From NCBI RefSeq assembly GCF_018350175.1, contig NC_058382.1, positions 48,920,001 through 48,984,000 on the forward strand: a stretch of DNA of 64,000 nt. Reading direction: 5' to 3'. Both the position numbers and the translations under genes were made by a program. This document shows, piece after piece, positions 1 through 60,486 of the stretch. This DNA comes from Felis catus. Taxonomy: Eukaryota. Every line of letters begins with the position of its first letter. Position 1 is the stretch's first letter. The notes under the pieces are model-generated. The model was not told where the DNA came from. It saw only the letters and a list, made by a program, of their open reading frames with translations, and did not search any database.

Positions 1-246
1 CTCGAACGGAACTGGAGAACAAATAAACAAGAACAACCACATAACATACTGCCTCCAGTGCTTACGAAGGTCCCTGCTTGAGGGGAGAAGACGGAGTGAG
101 GGGGAGAGTGCTAGATTCATGTCAAAAACCAAGGGAACCCGCGGTTATCCCATAACAAAGTCCTCCAGCTCACGGGAGAAACCAACAGACAGACCTCCGT
201 GGGATTCGGGGAGGATAAAGAGCCAGCGCAAGACTCTGCCGTGCCA

Positions 247-461
247 GGGGGCGCCTGGGTGGTTCAGTCGGTGAAGTATCTGACTTTGGCTTCGGGCCTG
301 ATCTCATGGTTTGTAGGTTCAAGCCCCGCGTTGGGCTCTGTGCAGACAGCTCAGAGCCTGGGGCCTGCTTTGGATTCTGTGTGTGTGTGTGTCTGCCCTT
401 CCCCTGCTCACACTCTGTCTCTTTCTCTCAAAAATAAACAAACATTAAAAACACAAAAAAA
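247..461 (+). mobile_element. Carnivore SINEC (mirror copy at ~61682-61896, minus)
   Basis: GGGGCGCCTGGGTGG head, CT-rich body, A-rich tail, imperfect TSD (AAGACT...GTGCC). Confidence 0.93.
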
Positions 462-1599
462 GACTGCGGTGCCTAAGTAAGTGGGTGGAGTGAGGGAAGG
501 GAGAACACTGCAGCAGTAGTTTTGATTCATTCTGCAACGGTTAGGTCTAGTCGCTTAGCTGTGTGTGATAAGAGACTGGAAAACAATTGGAGAAAGATTC
601 CCACTATGACGTAGGAGTTTCTCAGCGTGGGGCATCGATCGGGTTGTCTGGTGAGAGCTGGTGTCCTCAAAGCAAAGAGAAAACAGAATTTGCTCAATTA
701 CACGCCACCGACATAACGGTCCGAGCGTCTCAAAGTGCTCACGTGAGCAGCAGGGAAACAGATACGATTACCTTGAAAGGGAAAAAGAAGGTTCTGAGAG
801 CCGACCACTGTCAGGTGGGAAACAGGAAGCCAGTAGCCCCGTGCTAAGCGATTCATCAGCAGATAACGTTGAGTGGCTTAACGTAAACACCCTGATGGAA
901 GGCTGCCATTAGAGCTTCAACCCAAACCCCTCGAGGAAGAGGAGGAAGAAAAGCAGGAGTTTTCAGTTTTTAAACAGACAAATTTAAAAATGAGTATTTC
1001 TTTAAGAAATAGAGCACACATACACTACGCCCCCCTCCAAATGTATAAGAAATGGTACAGGTAGGTTTCTCATTGTAAGTAAATTTTACTCCCTACCCCC
1101 TAAGAAAACAAAACCAAAAACCAAAAACTTGAAATACACATGGAACTCTAGTTAATGCTACAAAAGCTGAACTGTTTTGGAGGAGGAGGGGTCAGCTTCC
1201 ATGATGAAAGAGAATGCTTCTACCAAACTGACCTTCCAAACGGTAACAGTTACACATTTAGAACAAAATACAGAATGTAATGCCCCAGAGGAACAAAGGC
1301 AGGCAGTTTTTAGAGGTGGGTCAAACGGAGCAGCAGCCTGAGCCACGGAGCAGCTAAAACTCCAACAGTAAAACCCACCAAGCTCTGGACACCACGAAAG
1401 GCGCCTCAGAAGAACCCAGGCTGCAAGAGAGCAAAGGGGAGCCTGAGAAAGGAGGCTGTCAGAGAAGGAAGATGCTCAATTACAGTGAAAACTCACTCAA
1501 GTCTCAGGCTGGCCCTAGAAATGTGCTTTGTGGGCAAATCATTTCAGATATGCCAACCCCTAGTCCCGGGAGCCCAACTTTTCCAATCTCTACTCTCTC

Positions 1600-1660
1600 C
1601 ATCTCTCTCTCTCTCAATATATATATTGGGAGGGAGGTATATGGATATATACCCACATAC

Positions 1661-1716
<56 letters not shown>

Positions 1717-1721
1717 GTATG

Positions 1722-1761
<40 letters not shown>

Positions 1762-1870
1762 GGGAGCTTTAAAATTTTTGTATTATTTATATATAATATA
1801 TATAGATTTATATATCTATATGTATAGGTATATATATCTCCTATAGGCTCTCTCTCTCTCTTTTTATATG
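1600..1870. repeat. Compound (TA)n/(CT)n microsatellite (mirror at ~60300-60545, different length)
   Basis: Long (TA)n tracts at 1661-1758. Confidence 0.97.
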
Positions 1871-4379
1871 GTCTCTATTGGTGCCTAATCCAGAGGCGGC
1901 TCAGGAAAGCTAACATCCCAGAGTCATCCACCAAGGAAGAGGCAGTGCAGGCATTCAGACCCAGGCCAGGTCAGCTCCAAAGTTATGCTCTTGACCAAAT
2001 AGGACAGCGACCCTCTGACCTCGGACTCTGGGGGACTGAGTCAGACGATGCCCCAGATCCAAGTGCCGGAGGGCCCCTAACTCTGCAGAGGCCCCTCGAG
2101 GTGAGGACAGCAGGAAGGTAAGCGCACTTCGCTCTTTACGAAGCTGCACCAAAGAGCCTCTCCTCAGTCCCTCCCGTGCCACGGGGGCCGCATGGATTAT
2201 CACCTCTCAGGGGGAGATTTGACGAGTCTGATTTGGGTTTCTAGTTAATCCTGACTACCTGCACTCCAGATGCGGGGCTGGGAGACCCGGGAAACCTCAA
2301 TTCACGAGTCTCAGCGCCACCTACCGGTGAGTTGGTACACCCAAGGCAGAAAAGAGTCCTGTCTGCTCTCCCAGGCCACGAGGCCACGACGAAACTGCCA
2401 TTTCACAGATTGGCAAACGGAGCTCGGAGCTCGCCCTCACCGCTTTCCCTCAAGTAATCATCTGGTGGATGCAGGGCGCAGCACAAGATGGTTACGGGGA
2501 AGCCAGTCCTTTGGGAGGGACTGACACGCGAGGAGGGGAGAGGACCACGTAAAGACAGAGGCGGAGAGAGTCCAGCGGCCACACCAAAGGGAGACCAGGT
2601 GTTGTGGGGAAGGGGAGGCTTCACCGAGAGATGGTGGTGATGTGGGCTGAGGTTCTGAAATTCTGGACGGTCTGCCAGGCTGACTGGAGGGGCTTGGGGG
2701 GGGGGGCATTTGTTTCCAAATGCAGAGCTCTTCCCTGAGCACAGCGGGACAGGTGCCAGGAAGGGCATCTCAGGGAGCGAGAGATGGGTCTGGCGGGTGC
2801 GAGTGGAGAGCAGGGTGAGAGGAAAGATGAGCCGCACACACACACGGGGCAAACAGGCCAGGAATCGGGCCCCAGCGTCGCACAGTGTGTGGGCCCAGAG
2901 CGAGTTCCACCATGAGGACCGTGCTCTGCCACACGCTAAGGAGTCCGGACGCAACCTCCGCAACGACTGGAGTCATGAGGACGCGCTAAGCCAGGGAGTA
3001 CAACGATCCCACGTGTTTTGGAAAGACAGCCCTGCAGAGCGAGGACAGGGTGGGAGCAGGAGCGGGGCCATCTCTTCGGGGATCGTCATCAGAGCGAGGG
3101 ATGCTACTCTCTGAACCCCGGCAGCAGCGGCAGGAACGAGAGGCCGGAAGAGACCAGAGGTCCGGGGACACCACTCGGTCGCGCTGGGTGACGAACCGGA
3201 GGTACGGGGAGAAGCCAGCGGGGCGACCAGATGACCCCGCGGTTTCTGACCCGGCTGACCATTCGTGGACTGGAAATAAAAGGAGATTTGGATGATGAGG
3301 TCGTTCCCGACGTGTCAGCTTATGGGGTTCTCACACGTAGCGGCTCAGAAGCTGGTTAGATGAGCGGAACAAAAGACCGGTGACTCCCGAGTTCGCGGCG
3401 AGGGAAGAGTCCCTCAAGGAGACGGAGGCCCTGACTGCGTCGTTCCTGCGTGGCCACGCGGCCAGACGCCCTCTATTCGAGCCGCGAGATGGCTGCTACA
3501 CCCCAGCCCGGGACCCGGTGCGTCACAGAGCACTTGGCCTCACGCTTACGGGCCCGCAGGGGGCTGCGGTTTGGCGGGTGGCGGGTGGCCCTTGCGGGCC
3601 GGGGGGTCGGCGGGCTGGGCGTCAGGCCGGGTTCAGATCTGTTTCCCGAGTCTCCCCTCCGGTGTGATCCCATGATCCTCCAAGACACGGTGGCCGCTCA
3701 GGGCACCATCGCTGATGAAAAGCCGCACCCCGGAGGGCTACGGACGCGCGTAATTTGCCTTAGGGCCTCGCTCCGGGCCTGCACACCGCGGTCTCTGCCG
3801 ACCTTTTATAAAAGTCCTCAGGACGGCTGACACATATACTCCAACCCTTTGACGCACTGCAAGGTCACCTGGCAGACGGCACAGGGCCTGAAAAGATCCG
3901 GGGAGCACAGCTAAGTGGGGCTCCTTACTGTTACATTGCGCGCTCTTTTCTCGCTCTCTGTCCCCAGCCTCAGACGTCCTCCTGGCCACCTGCCCTATGC
4001 TACGGCGCAGATGGCTTCTGGATTCAGAACGAACACCTCGGCTCCGTCTCTAGATCTTCCCACAAGCGGCATGATCTTGGAAAAGTCACGTTACCTCTGA
4101 GCCCACATCGTCTGCTAAAACCTCACCTACTAAGATTGTCACAAGATCCAATGGGATGAGGTATGAGAAGAGCCCTGTCCTGCTCTAAGTATCTTCCTTA
4201 GGAACCAGCGAAAGTCCTTCTGAAGCCACAGAGCTTTCACAGCTACCATTTGTCCTCCGGACTGCTCAACTCTTGGCACCCAGCGGTTTCGAGACACGAG
4301 AGAGAGAGCTTCCTGGAAGCCTCTCGAGAAGTACGGGTCAGACTTCCAGCCTGGTTGATTCCAGTTCACTCAGAGGGTG

Positions 4380-5700
4380 TTGCTTTACGTGTCCCGAGAC
4401 GATTCCGAGGCACCACCGCTGGTGCCTACCGCATGCTTAGCACTTTCTTGGCTGGTTCAGTCTGTCGCGTGTTAGAGACTTAGATGTGAGTCCTCAAACC
4501 TTCAGAAGACTAAGGGAGGCTATCTGTCTCTAGCCATGCCGCCACTGCGCGGAGGGTGATGGAATGCCTGTGTGTGCTGTGCCTTGGTTTCCAAATCCTG
4601 TTTTATGCTCTGGTAACACAGGTGGATAAGGTTTTGTGTATCGTGTTTATCCTCTGTTATGGCAAATACTTAACACCCTGTCGCCAAACATGAAGCACGT
4701 TTCACAGTGGACTCAGCCAGAGTAATTAACGTGTCTGTTTATTCATTTGCAGACCCAGTCGCATGAAAAGAACACGTTAATTAAACTCCGGCTTGATGGA
4801 AGTACAGGGTAGGATGTTAATACCGCGCCCGCGGAGGCAGACGTGCTGGTCACTCTGGGCGCCTCAAGTCCCCGGAGCTCCTGTGAAAGAGCCCGTGCCC
4901 TAAAATGCCTCACGTGTCCTCAGCACCACCTGCTGTCACTACACACACACACAGAAAGGGGCTGAGCAAACTGCACATTTACAAAATGTACATTTTGTAA
5001 TACAAAATGTAAATAAGGAGTTACAGCGCTGTACGATAATTACAATGGCATTTTCCTGTATCCCAAGAGCACACCGGAGAGTGAAGCGTTAACTGTGCTG
5101 CTAGAAACCCCTTGATTGAAACAAGCCGCAGAAACTTTCTACCCAGCAGGCCAGGCCTTTGATCTGGGGAAGAGAGGCTGTGGGTGGTGGAGGGGAACCC
5201 TCAGACCGAGTGATTGACTTTCTCTTTGTCCTTCCTGTCTACACCTACCGTGGGACATTCTGGCGTAAGGCATGAGAACCGAGAACCGAGAACCGGGCTT
5301 GGAGCAGAGAGGTGCTCTGAGCTCCAGTTCCTGGTGTGCAAAGGAAATCCTGGCATGGATCTTTTGAAACAGATGCTGAAACTATCCTCCCCACCCCTGG
5401 TAATTTCAGTCCTTGCGAGACAGAAAACCAAGAAGGCAGAATGTTTGCAACGGTGAATCCAAATACCACGAGTGAAAAGTCCCGTCAAGACGTGTAATTG
5501 TGCACGGGATGGTGTGCTCTGTGAAGTATCGTACAAGAAGTCACTCTGACGTTTCGTGGAGTAGGAGAAGCCCAGAAGAGAAAACAGTCAGTCCTCCTGA
5601 AGAATAGGGCATTTGGTGGGCATGAGAGCCTAGAAAGTACAAGAACCAACGTCGACAATAAAGGAGCCGTGGGACTTAGCCTTTTATCGTGGAGATGTAA
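4380..5700 (-). repeat. Old inverted paralog of distal PDPR 3' UTR sequence (~43490-44740)
   Basis: Reverse complement shares long blocks with the 3' UTR, e.g. TTGTTTCAATCAAGGGGTTTCTAGCAGCACAGTTAAC and GGATACAGGAAAATGCCATTGTAATTAT. Ends approximate. Confidence 0.9.
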
Positions 5701-5714
5701 ATAGTGACGGTTGA

Positions 5715-5899
5715 GGGGCACCTGGGTGGCTCAGTCGGTTGAGCCTCTGACTCTTGGTTTGGGCTCAGGTCATGATCTCAGCGTTGGTGGGTCCCAGTCC
5801 TGCGTCCGGCTCTGCACTGGTGGTGCAGAGTCTGCTTGGGATCCTCTCTCTCTCTCTCCTTCTCTCTCCCTCTCTCAAAATAAATAAACATCAAAAAAT
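5715..5899 (+). mobile_element. SINEC (mirror at ~56221-56430, which retains 26 bp missing here)
   Basis: SINEC head and tail; TSD AAATAGTGA(C/T)GGTTGA. Confidence 0.93.
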
Positions 5900-6849
5900 A
5901 GTGATGGTTGACGTAAGCAGGGAGAAATGCGTACAGTGTGTTCACTACTTAACTGCACGTAAACGGAATGGAATTTACCACACCATCACTTCATTTCACC
6001 CACCGTTTCGTACAGACAACTAGGTTTCTCCCCAATTCACAAGCCTGAAAATGGCATAGGTGAAACTACTCATCAGGAAAACTTGTGAAGTTTTTCTCCC
6101 CAAACTGCCACATCTGGGACGTCCTCAAGAATACAACCTCAGATGGGTTGGTCTATTTCCTCTTCCTTTTGGGTAGTCAGGTGACACCAAGCTCTAAGCC
6201 ATTAGCTAAAATACTGAAGAATTTCTCTGCACAGAAGCGCAGAATGTCTTCAACTTTTATGCGTCAGACCAGCAAGAGGCGGAGTTTCCATCCTCAGGCA
6301 GCCGGAACCCGGTGCAATGTAGCGTGTGAGTCAACTGGCGAGTCAGTGGGTAGACAGTTGTGCAGGTTGTGGGCCGGCCTGGTGCCACCGGGGTCCCTGA
6401 GCTTTCCTGCCACCCCCTAAAATGGCAGCAGCCCTCCGGTTCTTGTGCACTGCGGAATCCCATCATCAGAGGCCATAAGGAAACGAGACTGGCTCGTGTG
6501 GCAAGACGGGCTTCAATCCCAAGACCGGGAAGTGGAGAGTGTGGCCCACCGTGCAGTGGCGGCCGTGCCCTCACAACGCTCCCCATTCAAAGAAATACTG
6601 GCTGGACCATGCGCCAAGCGCTGCTGCAAGTGCTGCCGTGCCTAAGATTGAGGTTCTGTCGACAGGGTCCGGGGCCTGCCACTGGTGGCAAAGGCAGTCA
6701 GCGAACACATACTTTAGATAGTGATGAGTTCCACGAGGGAAAGAAAACAGGGCCAAGCGATAGGAAGGGAGGACTGGACGGGAGGCTTCTCAGAAGACGG
6801 AGTGAATGACTCTGCTTCCCTCGGGCCCAGGCAAGCCAGGAAGGTGCAG

Positions 6850-8140
6850 CGTGAGATCCCGCCCAGAGCTCAGGGTCGCTAAACCCGCCTCTGAGGTCGG
6901 GCCAGGCCCGCAGACCGGATTTCAGACGCTCTGCTAGAGCCTGGCCCAAGGAAGAGCCGAGCGCCTTCCAGAGACAAGGGACTGTCGGTCCACGCCGCCC
7001 TTTTGCGCCAGGGACTAGAGTGGCTTTGAGCCGCGGACCCGCTCGGGGACAGAAGCGGCAGGGCGCCTGGAGGGCAGAGCGAAGCCCCGCGCTCCCGACA
7101 CCCCGGCAAGGCCGGCGACCCACCGCAGCGTCCCCGCTCCACTTGCACACTTCAGAAAGCAGCCTGGACCACTGGGGCGGGGGCCGAGCTCCCGGGGCGG
7201 GGCCTCGCGGGACCCAAACAAGCCCCACGTGGCAGGGGCGGGGCCGCCGCGGGGACGTCACGGCGCGCGCGTGCGCGTGTGCCGGCACGCGCGGGCGTAC
7301 CCTTGCCGGGGGCCGTAAAGCGCGGAAGGTCGCGGTCTCCCGCTTCCCCGGAACTTTTTACTCCCTCCGCCCCGCCCCCTTCCCATTCCCAGTGCCCCGT
7401 TTCTGGCGGCGGGACCCCCGGCAACTGTTGTGGCTGCTGTTCCGCTGCCGCCGGGGTGCTGCTGACGGCGGAGCCCGCGGCGGCCCGTGAGGTAAGGAGA
7501 CGGCGGCGGGGCCGCTCTGGCCTCCCCTCCGCGCGGGTCTCAGCGCCCCCCTTTTCGCTTTGGTCTTCCTCGGGGGTGGTCGCGGCCGCCCCTCGTTTCC
7601 TGTCGCTCCTGCCGGGTCGCTGGGGACTCCGGCGGCCCGGGGCGGGAGTGGGTCTGCCTCGTCTCTCTCAGTCGGTCTGCGGCTGTGCGGCGTCCGGCCG
7701 AAGGGGTCCGGGGTCCGGGCCTTGGGGCCCCGTGCACGGCTGCCCCCGGGCCTGCGCTCCTCAGCCCGATGTCCAGAGCGGCCGGGGTGCCCTCGCTTCG
7801 GGCCCCCCGCCTCGGGCTTACACAGCGCCTGGCGCGGGTTTGGCTGGTCTCGCCCGCCCTTCTCCCTCTGCAGGTGCAATCGTTTTCCCGCCTGGAGACG
7901 TGCGGTCCGCCTCTGCTTCGCTAACTTGTACGCCTGCCGCAGAGTGCGGCAAGCCGAGTTACCGGGAAAAGTGTAGGCCAGGGTGGTGAACGGTCTTCGT
8001 GATGTTTGGTCACTCGGGACCCCTGTGAAGGACATTCACATTAGATTCGGGAATCTCTGTAAGCGTGACGTCCGGGCATGCGGCCGGGGGAGGGGGGGGG
8101 GGGGGGGCAGGGGAGGAGGGGAGGGGTGCCGGTGCCGGGC
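6850..8140 (+). promoter_or_regulatory. PDPR: PDPR CpG-island promoter
   Basis: Very GC- and CpG-dense. GC boxes at ~7175-7245, E-box CACGTG 7226-7231, CRE-like GACGTCA 7254-7260, NRF1-like GCGCGTGCGC 7267-7276, ETS-like CGGAAG ~7323. No TATA box seen. This motif set is typical of nuclear-encoded mitochondrial genes. Confidence 0.9.
7340..7491 (+). other. PDPR: Probable non-coding first exon of PDPR (start approximate)
   Basis: Strong donor GAG|GTAAGG at 7491/7492 just downstream of the promoter motifs. A candidate second non-coding exon acceptor (CCCTTCTCCCTCTGCAG|) lies at 7873/7874. Confidence 0.65.
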
Positions 8141-8635
8141 CACGGGGCACACTTTTCCAGCGCTAGGGATATGTATTAATTTCTTAAACTTGCCTGATCA
8201 CCTGGTGGCACGTTTTGACAGATACACCCCCGGGACCAGCCTCTCCAGAGAAAGAGCCTGGGATAGTGTTGGGGTTTTTGTCTGTTTGAAGGAAATGTCC
8301 CAGGTGGCCCTTCTGCTGAAGCAAGAGTGGGAAGTGTGTCGGTCGAGCTCCACTCACTAGGCTTCCTTGTGACCAGCGGCCCATTTGTACACACGCTGGG
8401 ACCATACAGGGGAACAACCCAGAGGGACTTGGAGCTGTCCCTTGCTCTTCTTGTCGTAAGCAGGTGTGAGCATAACCAGTCCCGATATTGAGGTTGCCTT
8501 AGCGATTCTTCCTAGAGGGAGAGAATATTATAGGGCCATCTTAGTTTTTTGTTTTTTGTTTTTAAATATAACTTATTTTAAACCCGGCTCCACCTTTTAT
8601 TTCTTTGTCTCTGACATCTTCAGATTCTTCTCTAC

Positions 8636-8850
8636 CGGCCTGGGTGGCTCAGTTGGTTGAGTGTCCCACTCTTGGATTTGGCTCAAGTCAGGATCCCAGA
8701 GTCATGGGATGAGCCCCAGATCGGGCTTCATGCTCAGCGTGGAGCCTGCTTAAGATACTCTCTCTCCCTCTGTGGCCCCTCCCCGGCTCCTGCTGGCTCC
8801 CTTTCTCTCTCTGAAAAACAAAAAAAAACCCTGAAAACAATTTTAAAAAA
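8636..8850 (+). mobile_element. Older SINEC (mirror at ~53270-53484)
   Basis: CCTGGGTGGCTCAGTTGGTTGAG...GGAGCCTGCTTAAGAT...A-rich tail. Confidence 0.88.
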
Positions 8851-8949
8851 TTACTCTATGTGATTTAGATATCCCCTGAAATCTTGGAGCCTAGCCTCAA
8901 GATCTCAGAGTCCTCACTGAATTTTTTCCCATCTCGTTTATTGTACATT

Positions 8950-11900
8950 CTCATTCCTCCGTTGATTATATTTCCTAGGTGCCTACCCTGAATGCCGGCA
9001 GAATCACGTTGAAGTGGTAACTGGTCTCAGCTCCCAGAGAGCTCCATTGTAAGAGGAGACTAAAAACTAGCGCTTACTGAGTGCTTCTCGGGTGCCAGTT
9101 ACCATGCTTTTCCTGTATTGTCTGTATTCCTGTAGTCTTTGTGGCAACCCGGCGAGGCAGGTGTTCGTAGCTCACCTTGTGGATGAGGAGCCTGGAGCAC
9201 AGAGATGGAATGACTTGCTCAAAGCCATAGAGCTGATGAGAGGTGGGGGAGATTTTCAGACCCGTACCTGTCTGCCCCCAAAGCCTGCATTTCCAGCGGG
9301 GTCGCTGTGCCGTTTCCCTGATTGGCAAACAGGCTGTGACAGTGTGGGAGGCTCTGTGCTGGAGAAGTGCAGGGTGCTGTGGGAGAACACGGAAGAGTCA
9401 CCTGAGGCGGTATTGGGGGAGAGGGGGTCTGATAAGCTGTGAAACAGGGTGAGAGCTGAGGGGATTATCCATGTTTGGGGGGCAAGGGGGCAGGAACTAT
9501 GCCGTGTGGTTCGAAGGAACAGTGTGCCCCGATCCTGGGGGTTTCAGAGAGACTCAATGCCTGTCCTGTTGGAGGAATTATCAGTATGTCCGTCTGGCTG
9601 GAGAGGAGAGAAAGAGACCAGAGGTCAGGAATGAGCCTGATGATGAAGGATCTCGCACACTTCCTGTTCAGGACAATGCTTTTTTCCTCAGGGCGTCAGA
9701 AAGCCATTGCAGAGTTTTGAAGAGGGGTGTGAACAAGGGTTTCCTTTGAGAAGCCTCCCTCCACGCCCCTCCTCGGAAGGATTGAGGGGGGGTGGGGAGA
9801 ATGGTGTGCGGAAGCCCTGTCGGGAAGCTTCTGCCTTCATCTGAGCGGGGAGGGCGGTCTGTACTCAGGTAATGGCAGTGAGGAGGGGGAGAGGTCGATG
9901 GTCTGAGGGAAATGTCGCCTGTGGAATTGTTAGTCCATGACGGTTGGCCGCATAGAGGAGGTGAGAGAGAGGGAGGTGAGAGAGGAGGTGACACCCGGGA
10001 TTCTTGTGTATGGTGTCACTGCGGGACACAGAAGTGGAGCAGATTTGGAGATTGAGGCAGGTGGGTTTCCCTTCTGGATGTGCTCGGCGTGACCCACGGG
10101 AACCCAAGTGGACATGGCCATTGTTCAGCTCGAGGTGCAGATGTAAAGCTCGGGGCTGTTGTGGGCTTAGGCGTCAGTCTTGGTACGCGTGAAATGACCC
10201 TGGAGGGTGGCAGACTGAGAGGAGAAGCTGGTCCCAGACACCCTGAGGGACAGCAACACAGAAGGATGGGCGGGGGAGGGAAGGCGGTGTAGGTGTGACC
10301 GGGGTAGTCGGTGTCAAAATAAAACAGGGACAGAGTGCGTGAGTAGCGGGAGCGATCGGCGGTGTTCAGTGCCGTGGAGAGGGTGAGTGAGATGGGCCCG
10401 GTGTCCCTGGAAGGTGGCAACAGTGGCATTCTTGGTGAGAGCAGTATTCCGGCCTGCGGGACGGGAGCTTAACCGCTTGGGTTCGGGACGGTGGAAAGGG
10501 GGGAAAGTGACAGATACCATAGGAAGCCCTTCTTGTCAAGTGAAAAAGACAGGTTGTGACGTCATAGTAAATTTTGGTGTAGCCCGCCGGCAGACTGTGC
10601 AATCACCGAGGTGTAACAAAAAGGACTTTAAGACAGGTGGTGGCACACAGGTGGGTGTCAGGGGAGCACGTGCTGCAAGATAAATAAGTCTGGGGAAATT
10701 TCATCAGCCCTGGAATTGAGTATTTTGCATGATGGGAGATCTTAATTTCCTTCTACGTTTGTGTGGTTTACAAAGACCACAATTTTTATAATTCAGAATT
10801 TGTAAAATTAAAAATCACCATTGGAAGACTGGTACGGAGCCTTTCTTGTATTTCTTAAGTCAGTTGGGAGGGACTTGAGCATATTAAAATGCTGAGGATT
10901 GGAGGGGACACTGAAGGTACGTGGAAGGGGACAGTTGATGGAGCCGAGTCAAGGGAAGGAAGGAGAGAGAGGGATCCAGGGCACGTGGGGAGGGATCAAC
11001 TTTTGACCCTACGAGGTTGAAGGAAGAGGTGGTCGTAGATGCAGGTGGAGTTTCAGGGGTTGAGGAGACAGGTTTTGTGTTTGGAAGGAAGGAAGGAGGT
11101 GGGGTCCCAGGTTGGGAGAGGAGCAGTGTTGTGGGTTCAGAACCTGAATGTAGACAGACATCTGCCTGTGGCTGAACACGCAGTGGCCCGGGGCTCGCTA
11201 CGGGGTGCCTGCTAGTGTGAGCCATGAGGGAACAGGGTCTTTTCAAGCATGACCAAGTGGTAATGGTTCTGAAGGGAGAAGGGTGCCCGCCTCCCCCCCC
11301 TCCTGATGGCAAGGTCAGTGGGACGGGCTGGCCACGTGGCAGTGGCGTTTCCCTCAGTAGAGCTGTGTCTCTGTTGAAGCAGAGGTGGAGAGAAGCTAGG
11401 TGAAGGGCTGGGTGTTCCAGTTTGGAAAGGATGTTCTGGAGGACACGGTGGAGAGGTTTGGAGCGGAGGACAGCAGACAGAGAGAGAGAGAGAGAAAGAA
11501 AGAAAGAGAGAGAGAAATCAGTCATATGGAGATGAGATTGTGGGAAGTCTGGCTGTGGAGAAGCTTCTGTCTTGAGACGGTTTGGCGGGGACCAAGGAGG
11601 TGAGGCCTGGAGGTCACCACAAGGTGGCCAAAGTAATCAGCCCTGGTTGGATGGGATTTCCTTGGGACGCAGTGGAGGCCTGCTCGGTCTCAGTTCTGAG
11701 ATCCTGTCTGATGGATGGGCACCCACACCTTGGCCTTGGACGACCTGGGCCGTCGGGGGCCCTCCGTGGGTCCCGGGCTGGTAGCGGCGTGCTGGTGGGC
11801 GCACGGGCTGCCAGGGCTCTCCTCTGAAGTGTCGCCGTCTCCCCACACTCGGAGACCGTGCCTTCGCCCACAGGGCTGTCTGCAGTTTCTTAAAAATTGA

Positions 11901-13480
11901 ACAGTCTCTTATGCCCTTAGAGTAATTCTCCCTGGTGGCCTGAACCTGTCCGCTCCCTAGTCTACCTCATGGTGTTAGTCATCTCAGAGGGACATGCGCT
12001 TGGTCGCAGCCTGTGACTCCCGTGGTTCGTCATAAGCCTGCCATGACCGGTCCTCCCCTGCTTTCAGGAAGGGGCCGTGGGACCTGGTGTCTCCAGTCTG
12101 TGGCCTGTGCAGACGTGGGGCACGCCGTCCCTCACTGCGGCTTTGGGTTTGTTTTCTCTCTCCTCCTCCTCCTCCTCCTCCTCCTCCTCCTCCTCCTCCT
12201 CCTCCTCCTCCTCCTCCTCCTTCTCTTCTCCTTCTCTTCTCCTTCTCTTCTCCTTCTCTTCTCCCTCCCTTTCTTTCCAGGACCTCATTCTTTGTCACCG
12301 CCTCTCCTTCCTCCCCCACCTCTTTCCCTCTTCCTGGCCCTTCTCGCCAGCCCTGAAACAGTCTCCGTGGCTCCCACCTTTATAGACAAATAGCCTTGCT
12401 CCACCCCCATTCTCTCCTCCTGTCTGGGGTTTCTGCTCCCTTCCGGGCAGCACGTGAGGAAGCTGTGCACACTCCCTCATCTCCTTGCTCTTGAGCTTGC
12501 TCTAGGCCGTACTTCGTCCCTGGCACTCCCCTGGGAATGTCCTCTTTGAGGACACCAAGGACCTCTGTGTCGTCAAGTCCCAGCAGGCACCTGGCCGTCT
12601 TGCTCCATCCCTGGCCACCCTCTGTAGCGAACCATCTCCTCTCTCGGCTTCTGTGACACCTCTGCCCGGTTCCCTTTCCGCCGCTCAGCCGTTTGGACGC
12701 TCTGTGAGTCTGCCCCGGCACGCAGTCCCCCGTCCAGTACTTTCTTTCTCTTGCCAAGCTGTGCCTGCTGGGGAGCCTCAGAGTTGTTCCTCAGACTGCC
12801 GGGTCTCCGGATACCCCACGTCTTCCCCAGGCTTCAGGCCTGGTTATGTAGCTGCTTGGCACTTCCACGTGGATGCCTGCTAGGTGTCTCGCCCTGGACA
12901 CCTCGGTATGCGCGCACGCGCCCTCACCGCCTCCCTCTCCCTCTCCTTCCTGCCTCCCTCTCCCTCCCGCCTCCCTCCGCATCCCTAGTCCTTCACACCT
13001 TAGGAAGTGGCACCCGTCGTCGCTTAACCTGGAAACTTTGCCATCGTCCGTCTTTCTCCCGCTCCCCATCTTAACATCCGGTTTGTTGGCAAGTTAAGTA
13101 CTGTCATTTCACCATCCACGACAATCCAGTCATGGCTCTGACTCCACCGCCACCATCCTTGTGTGAGCCACCGTGCCCTCCCTCTTGGACTCCTGCGGTA
13201 GCTTCCTAGCCCTGCCTTTCCTCCAGTCCACTCCCCACTGTGGAGCCAGGCCGATCTTAGGAAAAGCGTATCAGATCATTTCATTCCCTGCTTTAGTATT
13301 TTCCTTTGCACTTGGAGTAAAATCCCAGCTCCTCGTGAGGCATCCAAGCGCTTGTGTCACTGCTTTCTGCCTGCCTCTCCAGCCTCGTCTCTGGCCGACT
13401 GTGCCTTGCCGTCGAGCTGTGGGCACGCTGGCCTCCCTTCTGTGCTCGGACTCCTTCAGGTGTGCCTCCCCTCAGGGCCT
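8950..13480. mobile_element. Ancient MIR/L2-like fragments in the first intron(s) (mirrored in the right arm)
   Basis: MIR-like GATGAGGAGCCTGGAGCACAGAGATGGAATGACTTGCTCAAAGCC; L2-like purine-rich and pyrimidine-rich tracts. Boundaries not resolved. Confidence 0.55.
12160..12265. repeat. (TCC)~20 plus (TTCTCTTCTCC)n polypyrimidine repeat
   Basis: Read directly. The right arm (49885-49970) has only the 11-mer array. Confidence 0.97.
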
Positions 13481-13679
13481 TTGCATGTGCTTGTGCCTCT
13501 GTCTGGATGAGGCATGATGATTATCATTCTCTGTTGCCTCCTTTTCTTTTGTCACTAACCCGGCGCACTGAGTACAGTGGAATGAAATCTGTTTGCTTTC
13601 TCTGTCTAGTTTGAATTGGGGAGAATCTCCTCTTTGGCCGAGTGGGAGCACATCTCCGAGCTGCTGACTGGCAGACGTG

Positions 13680-13903
13680 ATGTTTTCCCGGTTGCTGTCG
13701 GTGGCCCGGAGACAAAGGACCGGCCGAGGATGGCAGAACTGGTCGTCGGGGAGAAGCGGTGCGCCAGCTGCCGAGGCGCATTCTGTCGCCCTGCCTGCCC
13801 AGGCACACGTGGTCATCTGTGGCGGTGGAATCATGGGCACATCCGTGGCCTATCACCTCTCCAAGATGGGCTGGAAGGATATTGTCCTTTTGGAGCAGGG
13901 CAG
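13680..13903 (+). CDS. PDPR: PDPR coding exon 1 (mitochondrial transit peptide and FAD-binding GxGxxG motif)
   Basis: MFSRLLSVARRQR...VVICGGGIMGTSVAYHLSKMGWKDIVLLEQG. ATG at 13680, preceded by in-frame GTG. Donor CAG|GTAAGG. 224 nt. Confidence 0.95.
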
Positions 13904-15059
13904 GTAAGGACCAGACGGGACCCAGCTTGGGGCCATGTTGCACCAACTGCGTGGGCTTCCCTCACCCCCTCTGCTCCCGGTAACCTGTCCCGGCAGTGGC
14001 TAACCTGTCGCTAGGTAGCATGAGAACAGTCACGGAAAGGCGAAATCTCCTGTCCATGGTTTTGCGATGTGCGATACCCGTGTTTTTGGGCTCTGAGAGA
14101 GGTGGCAGATGCCGCGGAGCCGAGTATCCGAAGAGGCTGCGTTTTATTTCAGGGTCCAGGCACATCTTACCATCTTGTTCTCCGGGTAGGGGCCGTCAAA
14201 TGGCAACATAGACCCCGTGGCTCTGGAGCTCCCTCTATGGGCGGAAATGAAATTGGCTGCATCTGTCTTCTTTCTGTTCCTTTCTTTCCCCCCACTGAAT
14301 TAACTTATTTTAGAGCCGTGCTAGATTTACAGAACAAATGCAAAGGTTGTACCGAGTTCCCGTGTGCCTCACGCCTGTGTGCACCTGGGACTGACATCTC
14401 AGGTTGGGGTTACCGTTAAATATGATGAATCAGTATGGATACCTTATTACTGACTAAGGTTCGTACTTGGTACAAGTTGTCTCACTTTCCCTTAAAGTCC
14501 TTTTTTGTTCTATTGCCTACCAGAAATTGAATGACGTTTAACAAGTCTGTTGTAATTCTCTCCGAATAGGCAATGCATTTATACGATTCAGAATTAAAAA
14601 CTGTAAAAGAGTGTGCAGGGAAAGTCTGCTTCTCATCCCTGACTTCTAGCTGAAGTTTCCCTCGCTGGAGGCAAATTAAGTTCCTAGTGTGTCGTTGCAG
14701 ACACCCCCCGTGTATATGAGCAAACGTGTTGGTCAGTGTGTACGTGTGTACGTGGGTCTTCACTTGCTATTTTTTTCTCTTTTTTTGTACAAGTTAGTGG
14801 CATATTAAGTAGTGCTCCTCCCATGCTGTTTTCATTCGGATTCCCATATTGTTGCAGAAGAGCATTCTCGTGCCTTTTTTATGGCTGCGCGGCGTCCCGT
14901 CGTGTAGGTGAACGCCAACATTTGAGATCCCTCTCCTGTCGGGATATTTAGGTTTCCGTCTTTTGATATTACGGTCGGTGCCAGTAATGAGGGTCTTTGA
15001 ACTAGTTGCATTCACAGATATGCGAGTCTACCTAAGAGCATTTTGGATCCATCCCGCAG

Positions 15060-15193
15060 GCTGGCCGCTGGCTCTACGAGGTTCTGTGCCGGCATCCTGA
15101 GCACCGCCAGGCACTTGACCATCGAGCAGAAGATGGCAGACTATTCCAACAAACTCTACCAGCAGTTAGAGCAAGAAACAGGGATCCAAACAG
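15060..15193 (+). CDS. PDPR: PDPR coding exon 2
   Basis: LAAGSTRFCAGILSTARHLTIEQKMADYSNKLYQQLEQETGIQT; AG/GT flanks; 134 nt. Confidence 0.97.
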
Positions 15194-17341
15194 GTAAGCA
15201 GGTACTCTGCCATTTACTGGTCTGCCTGTGGCCCGGACTCTTTCACTCGGTACCACATGCGGTCCGACACCAAGCCTGCCTGGGGACTTTAGTTGAGGCT
15301 TGAGTTTCAGTCCGAGCTCTGCACTCGTCCTGGTCTTACCTCGGGCCAGTGTGTGAGCGTGTTGAGCTGTCTCCCGTTTCCTTATCTGTCGAGGGGATTC
15401 GGTCATTATCTCGGATCCTATCCAGATGCCAGAATTCCTATGATGTGAAGGTTTTCCCGTGCCATTTCCTATTTCACCCTCTGAAGTATATATTAGGTGG
15501 CCACATCTGGCTCCTGAAGGAGGAAGAGAAGGAAGTGCTTAAGTTTTGGTGCTTGACAGTGAAATCATAGTCTGAGCCACTGAATTTCACCAGTCGCGCT
15601 TAAGGATATTTGTGACTGTAAAGCTTAAGCGTACGTTACCCCTTGTGTGCGTCACCAAGGGAAAAGAACCCGGGGAATCGTGAGCCGAATACGACCGGAG
15701 CAAGTAGGACGGGGAGACCAGGCTATGGGGCGGTCCCATATGAAAACAAGTAGGAAGCAGGTCTGTCAGCTTGTCGCGAGGTGATGGACTAGCCAGAAGC
15801 CCAGGGTTGAGCCTGTGTCGTAGCTGGTGAAACTGTTTGGTGGCGGCGGGAATTGTCCTAAGCGAGTAGCTGGGCCTAGTCGCTCGTGTAGCTCAGGGCT
15901 GCTCTTCAGAACACCTGCGTGATTCAAATCACAGGGAAGTCAAGACCCCTCCTGACCAGGACGGTAGCGCGATCTGTGTGCCAGCTGAGGTGGCTCTGCC
16001 ATGTGGTCACGGGGTACGCACGGCCTGGGGCTCACTTTGCCGGCCAACTGGAAATTAGGTGGCGTATGACACAGTTTTCACTGGGGAAGGTGAGATCATA
16101 ATCATCAGAGATTCTGACGACAGACTACGGTTTTCTAGCTTTCCCTTTCATATAACTCGCACTCTGGTGAAGTGTGACCTTGTTTGTCAATTGTGGGTTA
16201 AGATGAGCGTCCTGTAACAGGATTGGGTTGATGTGGCAGTGGAGAAGGGGAGATGCCAGGAGAGGAGCTACAGGCAGGCAGGAAGAGGCTGTACGTGCTT
16301 GGGCACGTGAGCAGGGTTCCCCGGCCGGCCCTGCGCTGGCCCAGTGCTGAGAGCGGGCGCCTCAGCCACCTCGCCCTGGTCCCTGCCCGGTAGATGAGCC
16401 CGACTCCCGTGGTGTCCTCGCTCTCAGCCAGGCTTGCTTTTGAGAGGCGAGGACCCGCGAGTGAAGATGGTAAATGTGCTTGGTGCCTGCCGCTGCACCG
16501 TCTCTGGCTTCTGTTAGGGAAGATGCGGGATACGTGCAGGACAGGCGGGAAGAGTCCCTCTGGGTTGGATTCAACTTGATGGCAGCCGGTACTTGAATCG
16601 GGTATCTACCAGGGATTGAGTCAGCAGAGGGTCCGTGTAATGGGCCCAGCGCCAGAACTGCTGACTTCCGGTCCACCGGTTCAGTTCCTCGTGCTTTGCC
16701 GGGCCTTGTGGTGCTCAGCTGGTTGGGTGCTAGAGGAATCAGGTCCTAGGCCTCTTTTCCGTAAGGTAAAACAATTTCAGTTGAGTTTTGGGTCCCCTCA
16801 AAACCCTTATTAGGTCCTGTATCCCCTTGATGCTTGTGGGACAGCACGGAAGTCAGGCAAGGGAGAGTCCGGGGATCAGTCAATCCGTCACCCCCAGTGC
16901 AGTTTAGCGGTGGTGCAGTAAAAGGTGACTTGGGGTACCCCGATGGAAAATTCTGTTACCCGGCAGAATGCGCAGGTGTGTGCTACTTGGATCGCTGCCA
17001 GTCGCTGGGCTGGTTTTAAGACATTAAATGAAGACGAGTGACCTGTGTACAACCTGGACTTCACGATTAGGATACTACATGCTAATCTTCTGAAAATAGT
17101 TCATTTACGTGAGGGGTATGTTCCCTACTTAAATATTCTGACACATCAGTACTTCATGCAGTGCCTGTTCCAGACCATGTAGCCCACGCGGATCTTTTTT
17201 CTTCAAATTTTGCCTTACCTTTGTCGGTGCTGTTTATTTAACAGTTTATCATATGCTCTTTGTCCCATCTTTTTATTGGGGATTATTTCTCCACTCTGTG
17301 TTACTTTCTTGTTCCTCAAATACAGAAATATTTTTAAATAT

Positions 17342-20300
17342 ATTTTTAAACATTTATTAATTTTTGAGAGACAGAGTACAAGCGGGGGGGGGGGGGGGCT
17401 GCAGAGAGAGAGAGAGACACAGAATCCAAAGCGGCTCCGGGCTCTAAGCTGTCAGCACAGAGCCCGACGCGGGTTTTGAACTCACGAACCGTGAGATCAT
17501 GACCTGAGCCAAAGTCAGAGCTTGACTGATTGAGCCACCCCGGCGCCCCCAGAAACATTCTTAATAATAGTTAAATGAGGGGCGCCTGGGTGGCTCAGTC
17601 AGTTAAGCGTCTGACTTCGGCTCAGGTCATGATCTCGCGGTCCGTGAGTTCGAACCCCGCGTCGGGCTCTGTGCTGACTGCTCAGAGCCTGGAGCCTATT
17701 TCAGATTCTGTGTCTCTTTCTCTCTCTGATCCTCCCCCGTTCATGCTCTGTCTCTCTCTGTCTCAAAAATTAAAAAAATAAAAACGTTAAAAAAAGTAAT
17801 AGTTAAATGAACCTGTTTTATTGAGTGCTCTTCAAATCAGCTCATATAAATAACTTGTCGTCTTTGTTTATACCTGCAGAGGAATGTGCCATAGTATGTG
17901 TTGGTTTGTTTATCCATTTTCCCATTACCTGACGTTTATCGTTTCATCTTCTTTTTTTACTCTTTTTTTTAATGTTTATTTTGAGATAGAAATAGAGCAT
18001 GAGTGGGGAAGAAGCAGAAAGGAGGGGGGACACAGAATCCAAAGCAGACTCCAGGCTCTGAGCTGTCAGCCCAGAGCCCAATCCAGGGCTCGAACCCACG
18101 AACTGCAAGATCATGACCTGAGCCGAAGTGAGACACTTACCGACTGAGACACCCAGGCACCCCATAGTTTCCTCTTTTTTTTTTTTTTTTTGGTTCTAAA
18201 TAATGATGCAGTAAAGATCCTTGTCGGTATATCTTTGTTTTCTCTTGTTATTTCTAATGGATAGATTTCTAAAAGGTGGATAATTTGAGCAAAGAGTGTG
18301 TGTATTTTAAACTCTGCTAGGTATTGCCAGATCATCCTCTGAAAGGGCCACCCTCTCACCATAAGTGTTTGAGAGCAGTTATATCTTTTTAGTCTTTCAA
18401 CGCTGGGTATTATTTTTTATATTATTTTTTTCTCAAGTAATCTCTGTGCCTAACATGGGGCTCCAACTCATGACCCCGAGATCAAGAGTTGCCGGCTCTA
18501 CCCGCTGAGCCAGCTAGGCGCCCAACATTGGGTATTATTCTTTTTGCTAATCTGAGAGATGGAAGAAGTTATCAGATCCTAATTTGCATCTCTTTCTTTT
18601 AAACATTATTTTGTGGGTTTATTGGCTATTTATATTTCTTTTCTAACTCGTCTTTTAATATTAGATGTGTACTTTGTTCTTATTGAATGTAAGAGTTCTA
18701 TTTTATGGCTTCACACCTGTGACAGGAAATTTTGTGTCAGAAAGCTCTAGACCAAACTTTAAAAGTCCTCTGTGGGAAAACAACAGACCATTAATCTTGT
18801 TAACAGGTGATATGTTGTTATCATTGGTGGTTCTGTTGGGATGAGCACAATTTGACATCATGTGTGAAATGCGCTGTGTTATGTAGTTTTGTATACAGTG
18901 ACACTCTCCTCCCATGTGGGATCTTTGGTAGTAAGTAGGAAGTGACTGCTGAACCCTTTGCAGTGAGATTCAGAGTGTGATGAGCCAGTGAATTACTGGC
19001 CAGGATCACTGCACTGGTCTGGTGTAGCTACAGTTTTTATTTTTTATTAAAAAAAATTTTTTTTAATGTTTATTTTTGAAAGACAAAGTATGAGCAGGGC
19101 GGGGAGGGGGGGTAGGAGAGGGGGACAGAGGATCCGAAGCAGGCTCTGCTCATGACCTGAGCCAAAGTCGGATGCTTAACTGATGGAGCCACTGAGGCTC
19201 CCCTAGCTATAGTTTTTAAAAGCCATTCTCTGAAATTTCAGTTCTCCAAACTTAGATGGACATTCTTGTCATGTCAGGGAAGGACATATTTATCTGATGG
19301 TTTCAAAAGAGATGAGGAAAATATTTAAATGATCCTCTGGTAGTGCCTTTTTAAAAGATAGCTGAGGCATGCCTGGGTGGCTCAGTCAGTTAAGCATCCA
19401 ACTTGGGCTCAGGTAATGATCTCACAGTTTGTGAGATCTCACAGTGGGTTCGAGCCCTACATTGGGCTCTGTGCTGACAGCTCAGAGCCTACAGCCTACT
19501 TGGATTCTGTGTCTCTGTCTCTTTCTGCCCCTCCCCTGCTCATGCTGTCTGTCTCTTTCTGTCAACAATAAATAAACATTTAAAAAATTAAAAAAAAAAA
19601 ACACCAAAATGGTAGCTGATTCAGTTTTTTCATCGTTAGAACTGAGAGTCATTGCACATTAGGGGGGTCGTCACTGACCAAAGCATGATCACAGGTGTGT
19701 CATATATGTTGACTGCAAAGAGCAGGAATCAACTCTGGCCAGCGTGGGCAAAAGGAGTTTGTTGGAAGGCCCTCGGAGCCAGTGAGTTGGCAGGAGGCTG
19801 CCGGCTGGAGCAGGCAACGTGGAGGCCAAGCCGTGGGGAACCCACAACAGGTAGCCCCTCAACTGAAACGGCCGGTCTGGCCAGGACGCTGCTGCTTCCG
19901 AGATGACTGGCCTCCAGCCATTCACCCACTTGCTCCAGACCCAGTATCCCAGGGGGTCTGATTGGCTGAACTTTGGCCACATGCCCATTGGCTATGCTAG
20001 GGAAGGAAAGGGTGGGTGTAGCTCCTGGGTGCCCATGTTGTGAGTGGCCTGCATTTGGGGCCATACTCCCACCTAAACCATGAGGAGAAAACCTAAAAAG
20101 ACCAAAGAAAGAGGTGGGTTCTGGGGGTACATTCCCCTCCCAAAGGCTTTGTAGCAACAGTTATCTCTCATTTTGACTTTAAGAGTGATTATTTAAAGGG
20201 GCACCTGCGTGGCTCAGTCAGTTAAGCATCCAACGTTGGCTTAGGTCATGATCTCACGGTTTATGAGTTCGAGCACCACCTCTGGCTCTGTGCTGACAGC

Positions 20301-21163: not shown

Positions 21164-21197
<34 letters not shown>

Positions 21198-60434: not shown

Positions 60435-60486
<52 letters not shown>

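What the first reader, a model, noticed from the sequence alone, without database searches (positions are those of the whole stretch)
4380..5700. Directional AT-to-GC skew in arm sequence: signature of GC-biased gene conversion
Seen: where the arm paralog (56445-57790) differs from its spacer counterpart, the arm usually has G/C, often forming CpG. Arm vs spacer: ACGCCAGAATGTCCCACGG vs ACACCAGAATGTCCCATGG; TTATCGTACAGCGCTG vs TTATTGTACAGTGCTG; CTCCGCGGGCGCGG vs CTCTATGAATGCGG; CCCTCCGCGCAG vs CCCTTTGTGTAG. Arm introns and intergenic DNA look CpG-rich throughout, unlike most of the spacer. Known: gene conversion favours G/C alleles in mammals. Inference: long-term arm-to-arm conversion.
Basis: partly seen in the sequence, partly recalled or inferred. 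Interest (0 to 1): 0.75.

Follow-up and report, generated by a model that had tools for sequence, protein, structure and literature searches.

The report
GC skew in PDPR palindrome arms
A mirror-image duplication around the start of the PDPR gene in a carnivore-like genome is richer in G, C and CpG than an old copy of the same sequence nearby, and copy-to-copy repair that favours G and C probably explains only part of this.

Summary
The arm segment 4582-5453 (mirror 56693-57585) has an old paralog in the spacer at 43758-44564. Where they differ, the arm has G/C and the spacer A/T at 87 sites, against 36 the other way (p=5e-6). CpG dinucleotides: 25 arm-only, 2 spacer-only, 4 shared.

The setting is a real palindrome. 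The arms are about 20 kb and differ by 0.73%; the spacer is 28.7 kb. It carries the promoter and first exons of PDPR.

Long-term arm-to-arm conversion is supported. A 450-bp piece that a 7.9-kb deletion cut off from the right arm is only 91.4% identical to its partner, against 99.3% for the arms.

GC bias is only suggested. SINE copies compared with their consensus give weak-to-strong:strong-to-weak changes of 40:34 in the arms, 48:95 in the spacer and 70:98 in the flank (p=0.005-0.1, depending on filter; 6 arm SINEs).

About half the skew is CpG-linked, and biased conversion explains that half poorly. Arm SINEs lose CpGs as fast as other SINEs (24 of 94 kept against 123 of 480). The arm copy lies between two CpG islands.

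No outgroup could be obtained. This is a known phenomenon in a new, autosomal, carnivore example.

The parts
1..16709 (.). Left palindrome arm. It continues outside the window to -3382, with a further outer piece from -4207 to -3383.
   Evidence: Inverted repeat with 45441-65522, 98.7% identity including indels. There are 146 substitutions in about 20.0 kb (0.73%) and 20 indels.
45441..64000 (.). Right palindrome arm. It continues to 65522, followed by an 8.5-kb insertion and the outer piece 74078-74903.
16710..45440 (.). Spacer, 28.7 kb, holding the rest of the PDPR gene.
   Evidence: GC 0.462, CpG o/e 0.36.
4582..5453 (-). Arm copy of the old paralog, in the left arm. This is the segment of the finding (4380-5700).
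   Evidence: BLAST against the spacer copy: 76% over 877 columns. Alignment.
56693..57585 (+). Arm copy of the old paralog, in the right arm.
   Evidence: 97% identical to the left copy. Alignment.
43758..44564 (+). Spacer copy of the paralog, about 3.4-4.2 kb downstream of the PDPR stop codon. It is probably the end of the PDPR 3' UTR (inference).
   Evidence: An AATAAA is shared at spacer 44408, right arm 57424 and left arm 4743 (minus strand). Identity is 86-93% before it and about 64% after it.
24585..25036 (+). Former arm sequence, left partner: a PDPR exon (DAO domain) plus intron.
   Evidence: 91.4% identical to 45441-44993 in inverted orientation. Pfam DAO hit on 24523-24792.
44993..45441 (-). 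Former arm sequence, right partner, directly abutting the right arm.
   Evidence: The junction shows a clean deletion of left 16710-24584 in the right copy.
16710..24584 (+). 7,875 bp present only on the left side. It includes two PDPR exons and six SINEs.
   Evidence: GC 0.454 and CpG o/e 0.355 after SINE masking.
13668..40355 (+). PDPR coding exons. 13668-13904 and 15001-15300 lie in the left arm. Exons from 20718 to 39954-40355 lie in the spacer.
   Evidence: Pfam DAO, FAO_M, GCV_T and GCV_T_C hits appear in order along the + strand. The last exon is 99% identical to carnivore PDPR proteins.
3001..4000 (.). CpG-island-like segment on the outer side of the arm paralog.
   Evidence: GC 0.632, CpG o/e 0.84.
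7001..8000 (.). CpG island upstream of the PDPR exons, probably the PDPR promoter (inference).
   Evidence: GC 0.729, CpG o/e 0.93.
248..448 (+). Arm SINE used for polarised counts. The others within the window are 5715-5877 and 8638-8826. Three more lie at -3219, -1166 and -683.

Best explanation
The skew is real and has at least two causes, acting on sequence that was already GC-rich.

(1) Shown. The window holds an old inverted duplication of the PDPR promoter and 5' exons, placed tail-to-tail just beyond the PDPR 3' end. Its arms have been kept about 99.3% identical by arm-to-arm gene conversion, while a cut-off piece of the same duplication has drifted to 91.4%.

(2) Inferred. About half of the arm-versus-spacer skew (29 against 2 sites, roughly 3.4 GC points) is CpG in the arm against TpG/CpA in the spacer. 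The best reading is methylation-driven CpG decay in the spacer copy, which lies in the gene body or 3' UTR, with retention in the arm copy, which lies between two CpG islands.

(3) Suggested, not proven. The other half (58 against 34 non-CpG sites, roughly 3.0 GC points) matches a general shift in the substitution process. Arm sequence fixes weak-to-strong changes more often and strong-to-weak changes less often than spacer or flank, as expected if mismatches formed during arm-to-arm conversion are repaired towards G:C.

Biased conversion therefore probably contributes, but it is not the main cause of the CpG pattern or of the 7-9 point GC excess of the inner arm.
For: Palindrome and conversion. 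Arms differ by 146 substitutions in about 20.0 kb. The ex-arm piece is 91.4% identical, and the switch happens exactly at the deletion junction. Arm-arm differences are patchy: variance/mean is 3.5 in 500-bp bins, 0 of 2000 simulations reach that value, and KS p=0.001.

Polarised SINE test. The consensus came from 51 genome copies. 43 of 48 local hits were usable; 37 remained after dropping the 6 right-arm duplicates. Non-CpG W>S:S>W is 40:34 in the arms, 48:95 in the spacer, 70:98 in the left flank and 32:37 in the right-arm insertion. Fisher tests give p=0.0054 for arms against spacer and p=0.028 against all non-arm copies. A copy-level permutation gives p=0.014. The four outer-arm SINEs, in a region with GC of only 0.445, give 24:20.

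The per-site rates predict an arm-S:spacer-S ratio of (0.093+0.091)/(0.071+0.051)=1.5 at non-CpG sites. The observed ratio is 58:34=1.7.

The GC* values (0.57 against 0.36-0.44) resemble those published for primate X palindromes, 60.9% in arms against 39.9% in flanks (PMC8981503, passages read).

In the contiguous left copy, the best compositional change point over 8001-26000 lies at 17010 for GC and 17070 for CpG, about 300 bp from the arm end at 16709.

CpG part. 18 of the 25 arm-only CpGs face TG, CA or TA in the spacer. CpG sites in the arms are hypermutable: 3.0% differ between the arms against 0.48% of other sites, a 6.4-fold ratio.
Against: There is no outgroup. Nothing here shows which paralog changed.

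The SINE test rests on 6 arm copies. After removing changes shared among copies, the direction stays the same but p rises to 0.017-0.11 against the spacer and 0.066-0.35 against all non-arm copies.

There is no GC step at the outer arm boundary (log-likelihood gain 0.0 at -4207).

Arm SINEs show no CpG protection: 24 of 94 dinucleotides kept against 123 of 480. New CpGs are not significantly more frequent: 10 of 988 against 30 of 5098, p=0.13.

SINEs may be methylated regardless of their surroundings, so they do not measure methylation of the unique arm sequence.

Published simulations give less than 1 GC point from biased conversion in 29 million years. The 7-9 point excess of the inner arm must therefore be mostly inherited or have another cause.

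The step near 16709 could be a coincidence, about 600 in 17000 positions, or could reflect where the deletion happened to break.
Confidence: 0.5

Rival explanations
1. One reading: GC-biased arm-to-arm conversion is the main cause of the whole skew, the CpG excess included. It would act by restoring CpG whenever one arm mutates to TpG and by fixing new G/C alleles.
For: Conversion between the arms is real. Arm CpGs mutate 6.4 times faster than other sites, yet arm CpG o/e stays at 0.53-0.60. The skew runs 87:36 in the predicted direction. The SINE-polarised counts also lean this way.
Against: Assuming no gains, retention is 4 of 6 for the arm copy and 4 of 29 for the spacer copy. That means decay about five times slower in the arm. 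A 70% bias gives only about 0.6 times the rate (my arithmetic from the bias value). Arm SINEs, which see the same conversion, keep CpGs no better than others, 0.26 in both groups. The outer 6 kb of the arm is not GC-enriched. Published simulations give less than 1 GC point in 29 million years.
Confidence: 0.15
2. Biased conversion plays no role. The two paralogs simply sit in different chromatin and mutation environments. The arm copy lies in a promoter-proximal region between two CpG islands, with low germline methylation and possibly an allelic recombination hotspot. The spacer copy lies in a methylated gene body or 3' UTR and decays towards A/T. On this view the arms are GC-rich because they are the 5' end of a gene.
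For: The arm copy lies between segments with GC 0.63-0.73 and CpG o/e 0.84-0.93. CpG differences between arms are rarer inside those segments (4 of 334 and 6 of 268 sites) than in the outer arm (10 of 119). SINE CpG decay is equal inside and outside the arms. There is no GC step at the outer boundary. Two flank SINEs also show high W>S shares, 7:1 and 7:3. The SINE test loses significance under some filters.
Against: All six arm SINEs fall in the upper half of the W>S ranking, and five of the six have a W>S share of at least 0.5. This includes the four in the GC-poor outer arm. The non-CpG skew of 58:34 needs a difference in process, not only CpG decay. The composition steps within about 300 bp of the arm end inside one continuous intron. 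A SINE 260 bp from the arm copy kept only 2 of its 15 CpGs, so the neighbourhood is not generally protected.
Confidence: 0.3
3. Selection. The arm copy is a functional element, for example the terminal exon or a regulatory part of a transcript divergent from PDPR, and its CpGs are kept by purifying selection.
For: A 450-bp core is 86-93% identical between paralogs whose flanks are only 64-75% identical. Both copies keep an AATAAA at the same aligned position.
Against: Conservation of the core is shared by both copies, yet only the spacer copy lost its CpGs. There is no expression evidence. No Rfam family matches at the gathering threshold, and no Pfam family matches any ORF of at least 60 aa overlapping the segment, at an E-value cut-off of 0.01.
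Confidence: 0.05

Closest known systems
Primate X-chromosome palindromes with GC-biased arm-to-arm gene conversion (Jackson et al. 2021, PMC8981503; passages read)
   Same: Inverted arms over 99% identical around a unique spacer. Arms are richer in GC than spacer or flank. Estimated GC* is about 0.57-0.61 in arms and 0.36-0.44 outside. Part of the spacer was once arm sequence. That paper also concludes that biased conversion explains only a minority of the GC excess.
   Different: Here the palindrome appears to be autosomal: the contig is 62 Mb, and the gene is PDPR, which I recall as autosomal in human. It is in a carnivore-like genome. The arms hold the promoter and first exons of a housekeeping metabolic gene, not testis genes. 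Arm divergence is higher (0.73%). Polarisation here comes from SINE consensus, not from sister species.
Human Y-chromosome palindrome P6 and other Y palindromes (Hallast et al. 2013, PMC3723533; Skov et al. 2017, PMC5591018; titles and abstract starts seen in the listing)
   Same: Arm-to-arm conversion with a reported GC bias.
   Different: Those studies counted conversion events on a known genealogy of many chromosomes. No population data could be laid here.
Methylation-dependent CpG decay and CpG-island maintenance in mammals (general knowledge, recalled)
   Same: CpG facing TpG/CpA between old duplicates. CpG o/e of 0.16 in the gene-body copy. CpG sites 6.4 times more variable than others between the arms.
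   Different: Decay alone does not explain the non-CpG skew of 58:34, nor the SINE-polarised shift in the arms.
Non-allelic gene conversion between autosomal duplicates (preprint 10.1101/135152; listing only)
   Same: Concerted evolution of autosomal duplicated segments.
   Different: I did not read the paper. Any statement in it about GC bias is not verified here.

Membership tests
Palindrome kept alike by arm-to-arm gene conversion | Two long inverted arms of high identity around a unique spacer | tested here: met
   Arms -3382 to 16709 and 45441 to 65522, differing by 0.73% in substitutions; spacer 28.7 kb.
Palindrome kept alike by arm-to-arm gene conversion | Arm identity far above what the age of the duplication would allow | tested here: met
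   The cut-off piece of the same duplication is 91.4% identical, with about 11% divergence in its intron part. The arms are 99.3% identical up to the junction.
Palindrome kept alike by arm-to-arm gene conversion | The structure is real and not an assembly artefact | tested here: met
   Arms differ by 146 substitutions, 20 indels, an 8.5-kb insertion and a 7.9-kb deletion. 20 of 24 listed runs, from 12 studies, hold 96-99% of the sampled words of 43001-53000, which spans the junction.
Palindrome kept alike by arm-to-arm gene conversion | Conversion events seen among individuals or species | not testable with these tools
   The read-laying run returned no data. All listed runs are of one species.
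GC-biased gene conversion signature | Excess of weak-to-strong over strong-to-weak among polarised substitutions in arms relative to flanks | tested here: inconclusive
   SINE-polarised counts are 40:34 in arms, 48:95 in spacer and 70:98 in flank. p ranges from 0.005 to 0.35 depending on the comparison and filter. Only 6 arm SINEs.
GC-biased gene conversion signature | GC higher in arms than in flanking sequence | tested here: inconclusive
   After SINE masking the inner arm (2000-16709) has GC 0.54-0.59, against 0.474 and 0.516 in the two flanks. The outer 6 kb of the arm has 0.445. Promoter CpG islands confound the comparison.
GC-biased gene conversion signature | Bias acts on all mismatches, CpG transitions included | tested here: not met
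   CpG dinucleotide retention in arm SINEs is 24 of 94, against 123 of 480 outside the arms. A modest effect of about 0.8-fold is still within the error.
GC-biased gene conversion signature | Outgroup polarisation of the arm-versus-spacer paralog differences | not testable with these tools
   No third copy exists in the genome. Two metagenome scans gave none and then 6 chance matches of 18-21 bases. No vertebrate genome collection is on hand.

The most novel reading that the evidence does not exclude
An autosomal palindrome that duplicated the PDPR promoter and first exons in convergent orientation has been homogenised for tens of millions of years. Conversion-coupled mismatch repair has given its arms a substitution equilibrium near 57% GC. 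In unique sequence, it has also preferentially restored CpG after deamination. The arm copy would then be a rare case where non-allelic conversion, and not hypomethylation, maintains CpG density next to a housekeeping promoter.
Probability: 0.12. Interest if true: 0.6.

Novelty: new member of a known kind. Interest (0 to 1): 0.35.

Why it matters
GC-biased conversion in palindrome arms has been described for primate sex chromosomes. This locus would extend it to an apparently autosomal, gene-embedded palindrome in a carnivore-like genome.

The locus also offers two internal controls that most palindromes lack. One is a cut-off piece of the original duplication, which shows how far the arms would have diverged without conversion. 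The other is an old paralog pair with one member inside the arms and one outside.

It is also a caution. CpG-against-TpG differences between duplicates look like biased conversion but are produced by ordinary methylated-CpG decay, so CpG sites have to be set aside before biased conversion is claimed.

Tried and rejected
Outgroups:
- Searching the genome for a third copy of the paralog found only the two arm copies and the spacer copy.
- Two metagenome scans with conserved words of the paralog gave 0 hits, then 6 hits that align over only 18-21 bases. These are chance matches.
- The run search returned 24 runs, all of the same species.
- The read-laying run returned no data. The population test remains open: which allele wins at arm-arm differences in other individuals.

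Further polarisable repeats in the arms:
- Genome scans with 8900-16709 and 460-5700 found only simple-repeat matches, so SINEs are the only usable family.
- Polarising arm-arm differences inside SINEs gave 5 W>S, 5 S>W (2 at CpG) and 1 unpolarised out of 11. That is too few to use.

Context test: the spacer-T/arm-C difference is 16 of 92 in TG context and 26 of 242 in other contexts (p=0.14). This does not separate loss from gain.

Other searches:
- Rfam: no family at the gathering threshold in the window.
- Pfam on ORFs of at least 60 aa in 1-13000: nothing. The gene, if any, that owns the arm copy is unidentified.
- Pfam on 150 of 165 flank ORFs of at least 75 aa: one V-set exon above its cut-off, and one DUF3923 match below its cut-off.
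- Earlier notes of this scan: none for this genome or this sequence. A word search returned only other genomes.

The right-hand step at 45441 (change points at 45240 and 45350) was rejected as evidence, because the right arm is a copy of the left and inherits its composition.

Full report
WHAT IS THERE

The window lies at 48.92-48.98 Mb of a 62-Mb contig in a 2.43-Gb assembly. It is dominated by one large palindrome. Within the window the arms are 1-16709 and 45441-62142. With 20 kb of flank fetched on each side, they extend to -3382 and 65522. A further outer piece (-4207 to -3383, matching 74078-74903) is separated on the right by an 8.5-kb insertion. The spacer is 16710-45440.

The arms differ by 146 substitutions in about 20.0 kb (0.73%) and by 20 indels. 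Of the substitutions, 128 are between a weak (A/T) and a strong (G/C) base, 110 are transitions and 53 touch a CpG. The G/C allele is in the left arm 65 times and in the right arm 63 times.

These differences, the insertion and the deletion described below rule out an assembly artefact. In addition, 20 of 24 listed sequencing runs from 12 studies hold 96-99% of the sampled words across the right junction.

GENE CONTENT

ORFs on the + strand hit Pfam DAO, FAO_M, GCV_T and GCV_T_C in order, from 13668 (left arm) to 40355 (spacer). The last exon is 99% identical to carnivore PDPR proteins.

The left arm therefore holds a CpG island (7001-8000, GC 0.73, CpG o/e 0.93) and the first coding exons of the working PDPR gene. 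The right arm holds an inverted, truncated copy facing the PDPR 3' end.

The abundant 200-bp repeat is a tRNA-derived SINE of the carnivore type. The family name is from recall.

THE PARALOG PAIR

The arm segment of the finding aligns to the spacer at 43758-44564, in the orientation of the right-arm copy 56693-57585. There is no third copy in the genome.

Identity is 86-93% over a 450-bp core. It falls to 71-80% up to an AATAAA shared at spacer 44408, right arm 57424 and left arm 4743. Beyond that it is about 64%. The spacer copy lies 3.4-4.2 kb past the PDPR stop codon. I infer that it is the end of the PDPR 3' UTR and that the arm copy is an old duplicate of it. There is no expression evidence.

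CHECK OF THE OBSERVATION

All four quoted string pairs are in the alignment. Of 803 aligned columns, 144 differ.
- The arm is G/C and the spacer A/T at 87 sites, against 36 the reverse (p=4.8e-6).
- CpG-linked sites: 29 against 2.
- Non-CpG sites: 58 against 34 (p=0.016).
- Away from gaps: 73 against 28, and 45 against 27 for non-CpG sites.
- CpG dinucleotides: 4 shared, 25 arm-only, 2 spacer-only. 18 of the 25 arm-only CpGs face TG, CA or TA in the spacer.

In GC points the skew is (87-36)/803=6.4. About 3.4 of these points are CpG-linked and 3.0 are not.

IS THERE LONG-TERM CONVERSION? YES

The right copy lacks left 16710-24584, which contains two PDPR exons, so this is a deletion in the right copy. 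Homology resumes exactly at the junction: 24585-25036 pairs with 45441-44993 at 91.4% identity. By my count on the alignment, that is about 5.6% divergence in the exon part and about 11% in the intron part.

The last 710 bp of the arms, on the other side of the same junction, are 99.3% identical. One duplication, with two very different divergences on either side of a heterology, is what concerted evolution of the arms predicts.

Arm-arm differences are also patchy: variance/mean is 3.5 in 500-bp bins, 0 of 2000 simulations reach that value, and KS p=0.001. This fits repeated tracts better than a single event. With recalled mammalian neutral rates of 1-2.2e-9 per site per year, 11% pairwise divergence means tens of millions of years.

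IS THE CONVERSION VISIBLY GC-BIASED? SUGGESTED ONLY

No outgroup could be had (see Tried and rejected). Instead I polarised substitutions in SINE copies against a consensus of 51 genome copies.

Of 48 local hits, 43 covered at least 140 consensus positions; 5 short hits were dropped. The 6 right-arm copies duplicate the left ones and were left out of the tests, leaving 37 copies. Non-CpG changes were:

| Region | W>S:S>W | GC* |
|---|---|---|
| Arms | 40:34 | 0.57 |
| Spacer | 48:95 | 0.36 |
| Left flank | 70:98 | 0.44 |
| Right-arm insertion | 32:37 | 0.50 |

Fisher tests give p=0.0054 for arms against spacer, 0.093 against flank and 0.028 against all non-arm copies. A permutation over copies gives p=0.014.

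When changes shared by several copies are removed, the direction holds at every threshold. However, p becomes 0.017-0.11 against the spacer and 0.066-0.35 against all non-arm copies.

The per-site rates predict a non-CpG skew of 1.5:1 between an arm copy and a spacer copy. The paralogs show 1.7:1. The GC* values are close to those published for primate X palindromes, 60.9% against 39.9% (PMC8981503).

COMPOSITION STEPS

With SINEs masked, the values are as follows:

| Segment | GC | CpG o/e |
|---|---|---|
| Left arm 8001-16709 | 0.544 | 0.53 |
| 16710-24580 (same intron, continuing) | 0.454 | 0.355 |

The maximum-likelihood change point over 8001-26000 is at 17010 for GC and 17070 for CpG. 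That is about 300 bp from the arm end. The log-likelihood gains are 71 and 35, against 67 and 33 at 16709 itself.

At the outer boundary there is no GC step, and only a weak CpG step (gain 4.0). The outer 6 kb of the arm has GC 0.445 and CpG o/e 0.43, against 0.474 and 0.28 in the flank.

The right-hand step is uninformative, because that arm is a copy of the left.

WHY THE CpG HALF IS NOT GOOD EVIDENCE FOR BIASED CONVERSION

CpG sites in the arms are hypermutable. 3.0% of them differ between the arms, against 0.48% of other sites. The rate is lower inside the two CpG-island segments.

Arm SINEs keep 24 of 94 consensus CpG dinucleotides. Non-arm SINEs keep 123 of 480. Both are 0.26. Conversion acts on any sequence, so a bias strong enough to explain the paralog pattern should show up in arm SINEs, and it does not. 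In the paralogs, retention is about 4 of 6 in the arm copy against 4 of 29 in the spacer copy, assuming no gains.

Differences in methylation are sequence-specific. Under that view the arm copy, lying between two CpG-island segments, keeps its CpGs, while SINEs and the gene-body copy lose theirs. A modest protective effect of about 0.8-fold is not excluded by the SINE counts.

MAGNITUDE

The SINE-derived rates imply roughly +1 GC point in the arms and -2 in the spacer over a SINE lifetime at non-CpG sites. Published simulations give less than 1 point in 29 million years. The 7-9 point excess of the inner arm must therefore mostly reflect what the arms are, namely a promoter and 5' gene region.

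VERDICT

Long-term arm-to-arm conversion is supported. A GC-biased component is plausible and quantitatively consistent, but it rests on a small polarised sample. The CpG pattern is better explained by differential CpG decay.

The phenomenon is known from primate sex-chromosome palindromes. My searches found no paper on a PDPR palindrome: the terms were PDPR, segmental duplication and CLEC18, and inverted duplication, GC-biased gene conversion, autosomal, concerted evolution and palindrome. This is a new member of a known kind.

Noticed in passing
L007 (window coordinates 65523-74077, outside the window): An 8.5-kb insertion is present only in the right arm. It has GC 0.44 and holds six SINE hits, four of them long enough for the counts. 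No Pfam family matched its ORFs of at least 75 aa.
   Followed up: partly
L008:685-1191 (window coordinates about 74685-75191): An ORF with an immunoglobulin V-set domain (E=2.4e-12) starts almost exactly at the outer end of the palindrome (74903).
   Followed up: no
window 17349-20396: Six SINE insertions lie in about 3 kb immediately inside the left arm boundary. The 20.9-kb arm holds only six in all, and every one of them is present in both arms.
   Followed up: partly
window 43758-44211 and 56693-57180: A 450-bp core of the paralog pair is 86-93% identical, while its surroundings are 64-75% identical. Either both copies are constrained, or the core was exchanged more recently than the rest.
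   Followed up: no
window 4979 (left arm) against about 57150-57200 (right arm): The arms differ by a 21-bp tandem duplication inside the paralog segment. Other arm-arm indels of 5-26 bp lie at 1670, 1725, 5859, 7104, 8103, 11905 and 12189.
   Followed up: no
window 10618-12617 and -3382 to -2383: There are two clusters of arm-arm differences: 19 in the 2-kb bin from 10618, and 23 in the 1-kb bin from -3382. The typical rate is 1-9 per kb. The first cluster lies next to a long low-complexity tract at about 12100-12300.
   Followed up: partly
window 45441-55000, minus strand: The right arm carries an inverted copy of the PDPR CpG-island promoter and first coding exons, pointing at the 3' end of the intact gene. 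If that copy is active, the two would be transcribed convergently.
   Followed up: no
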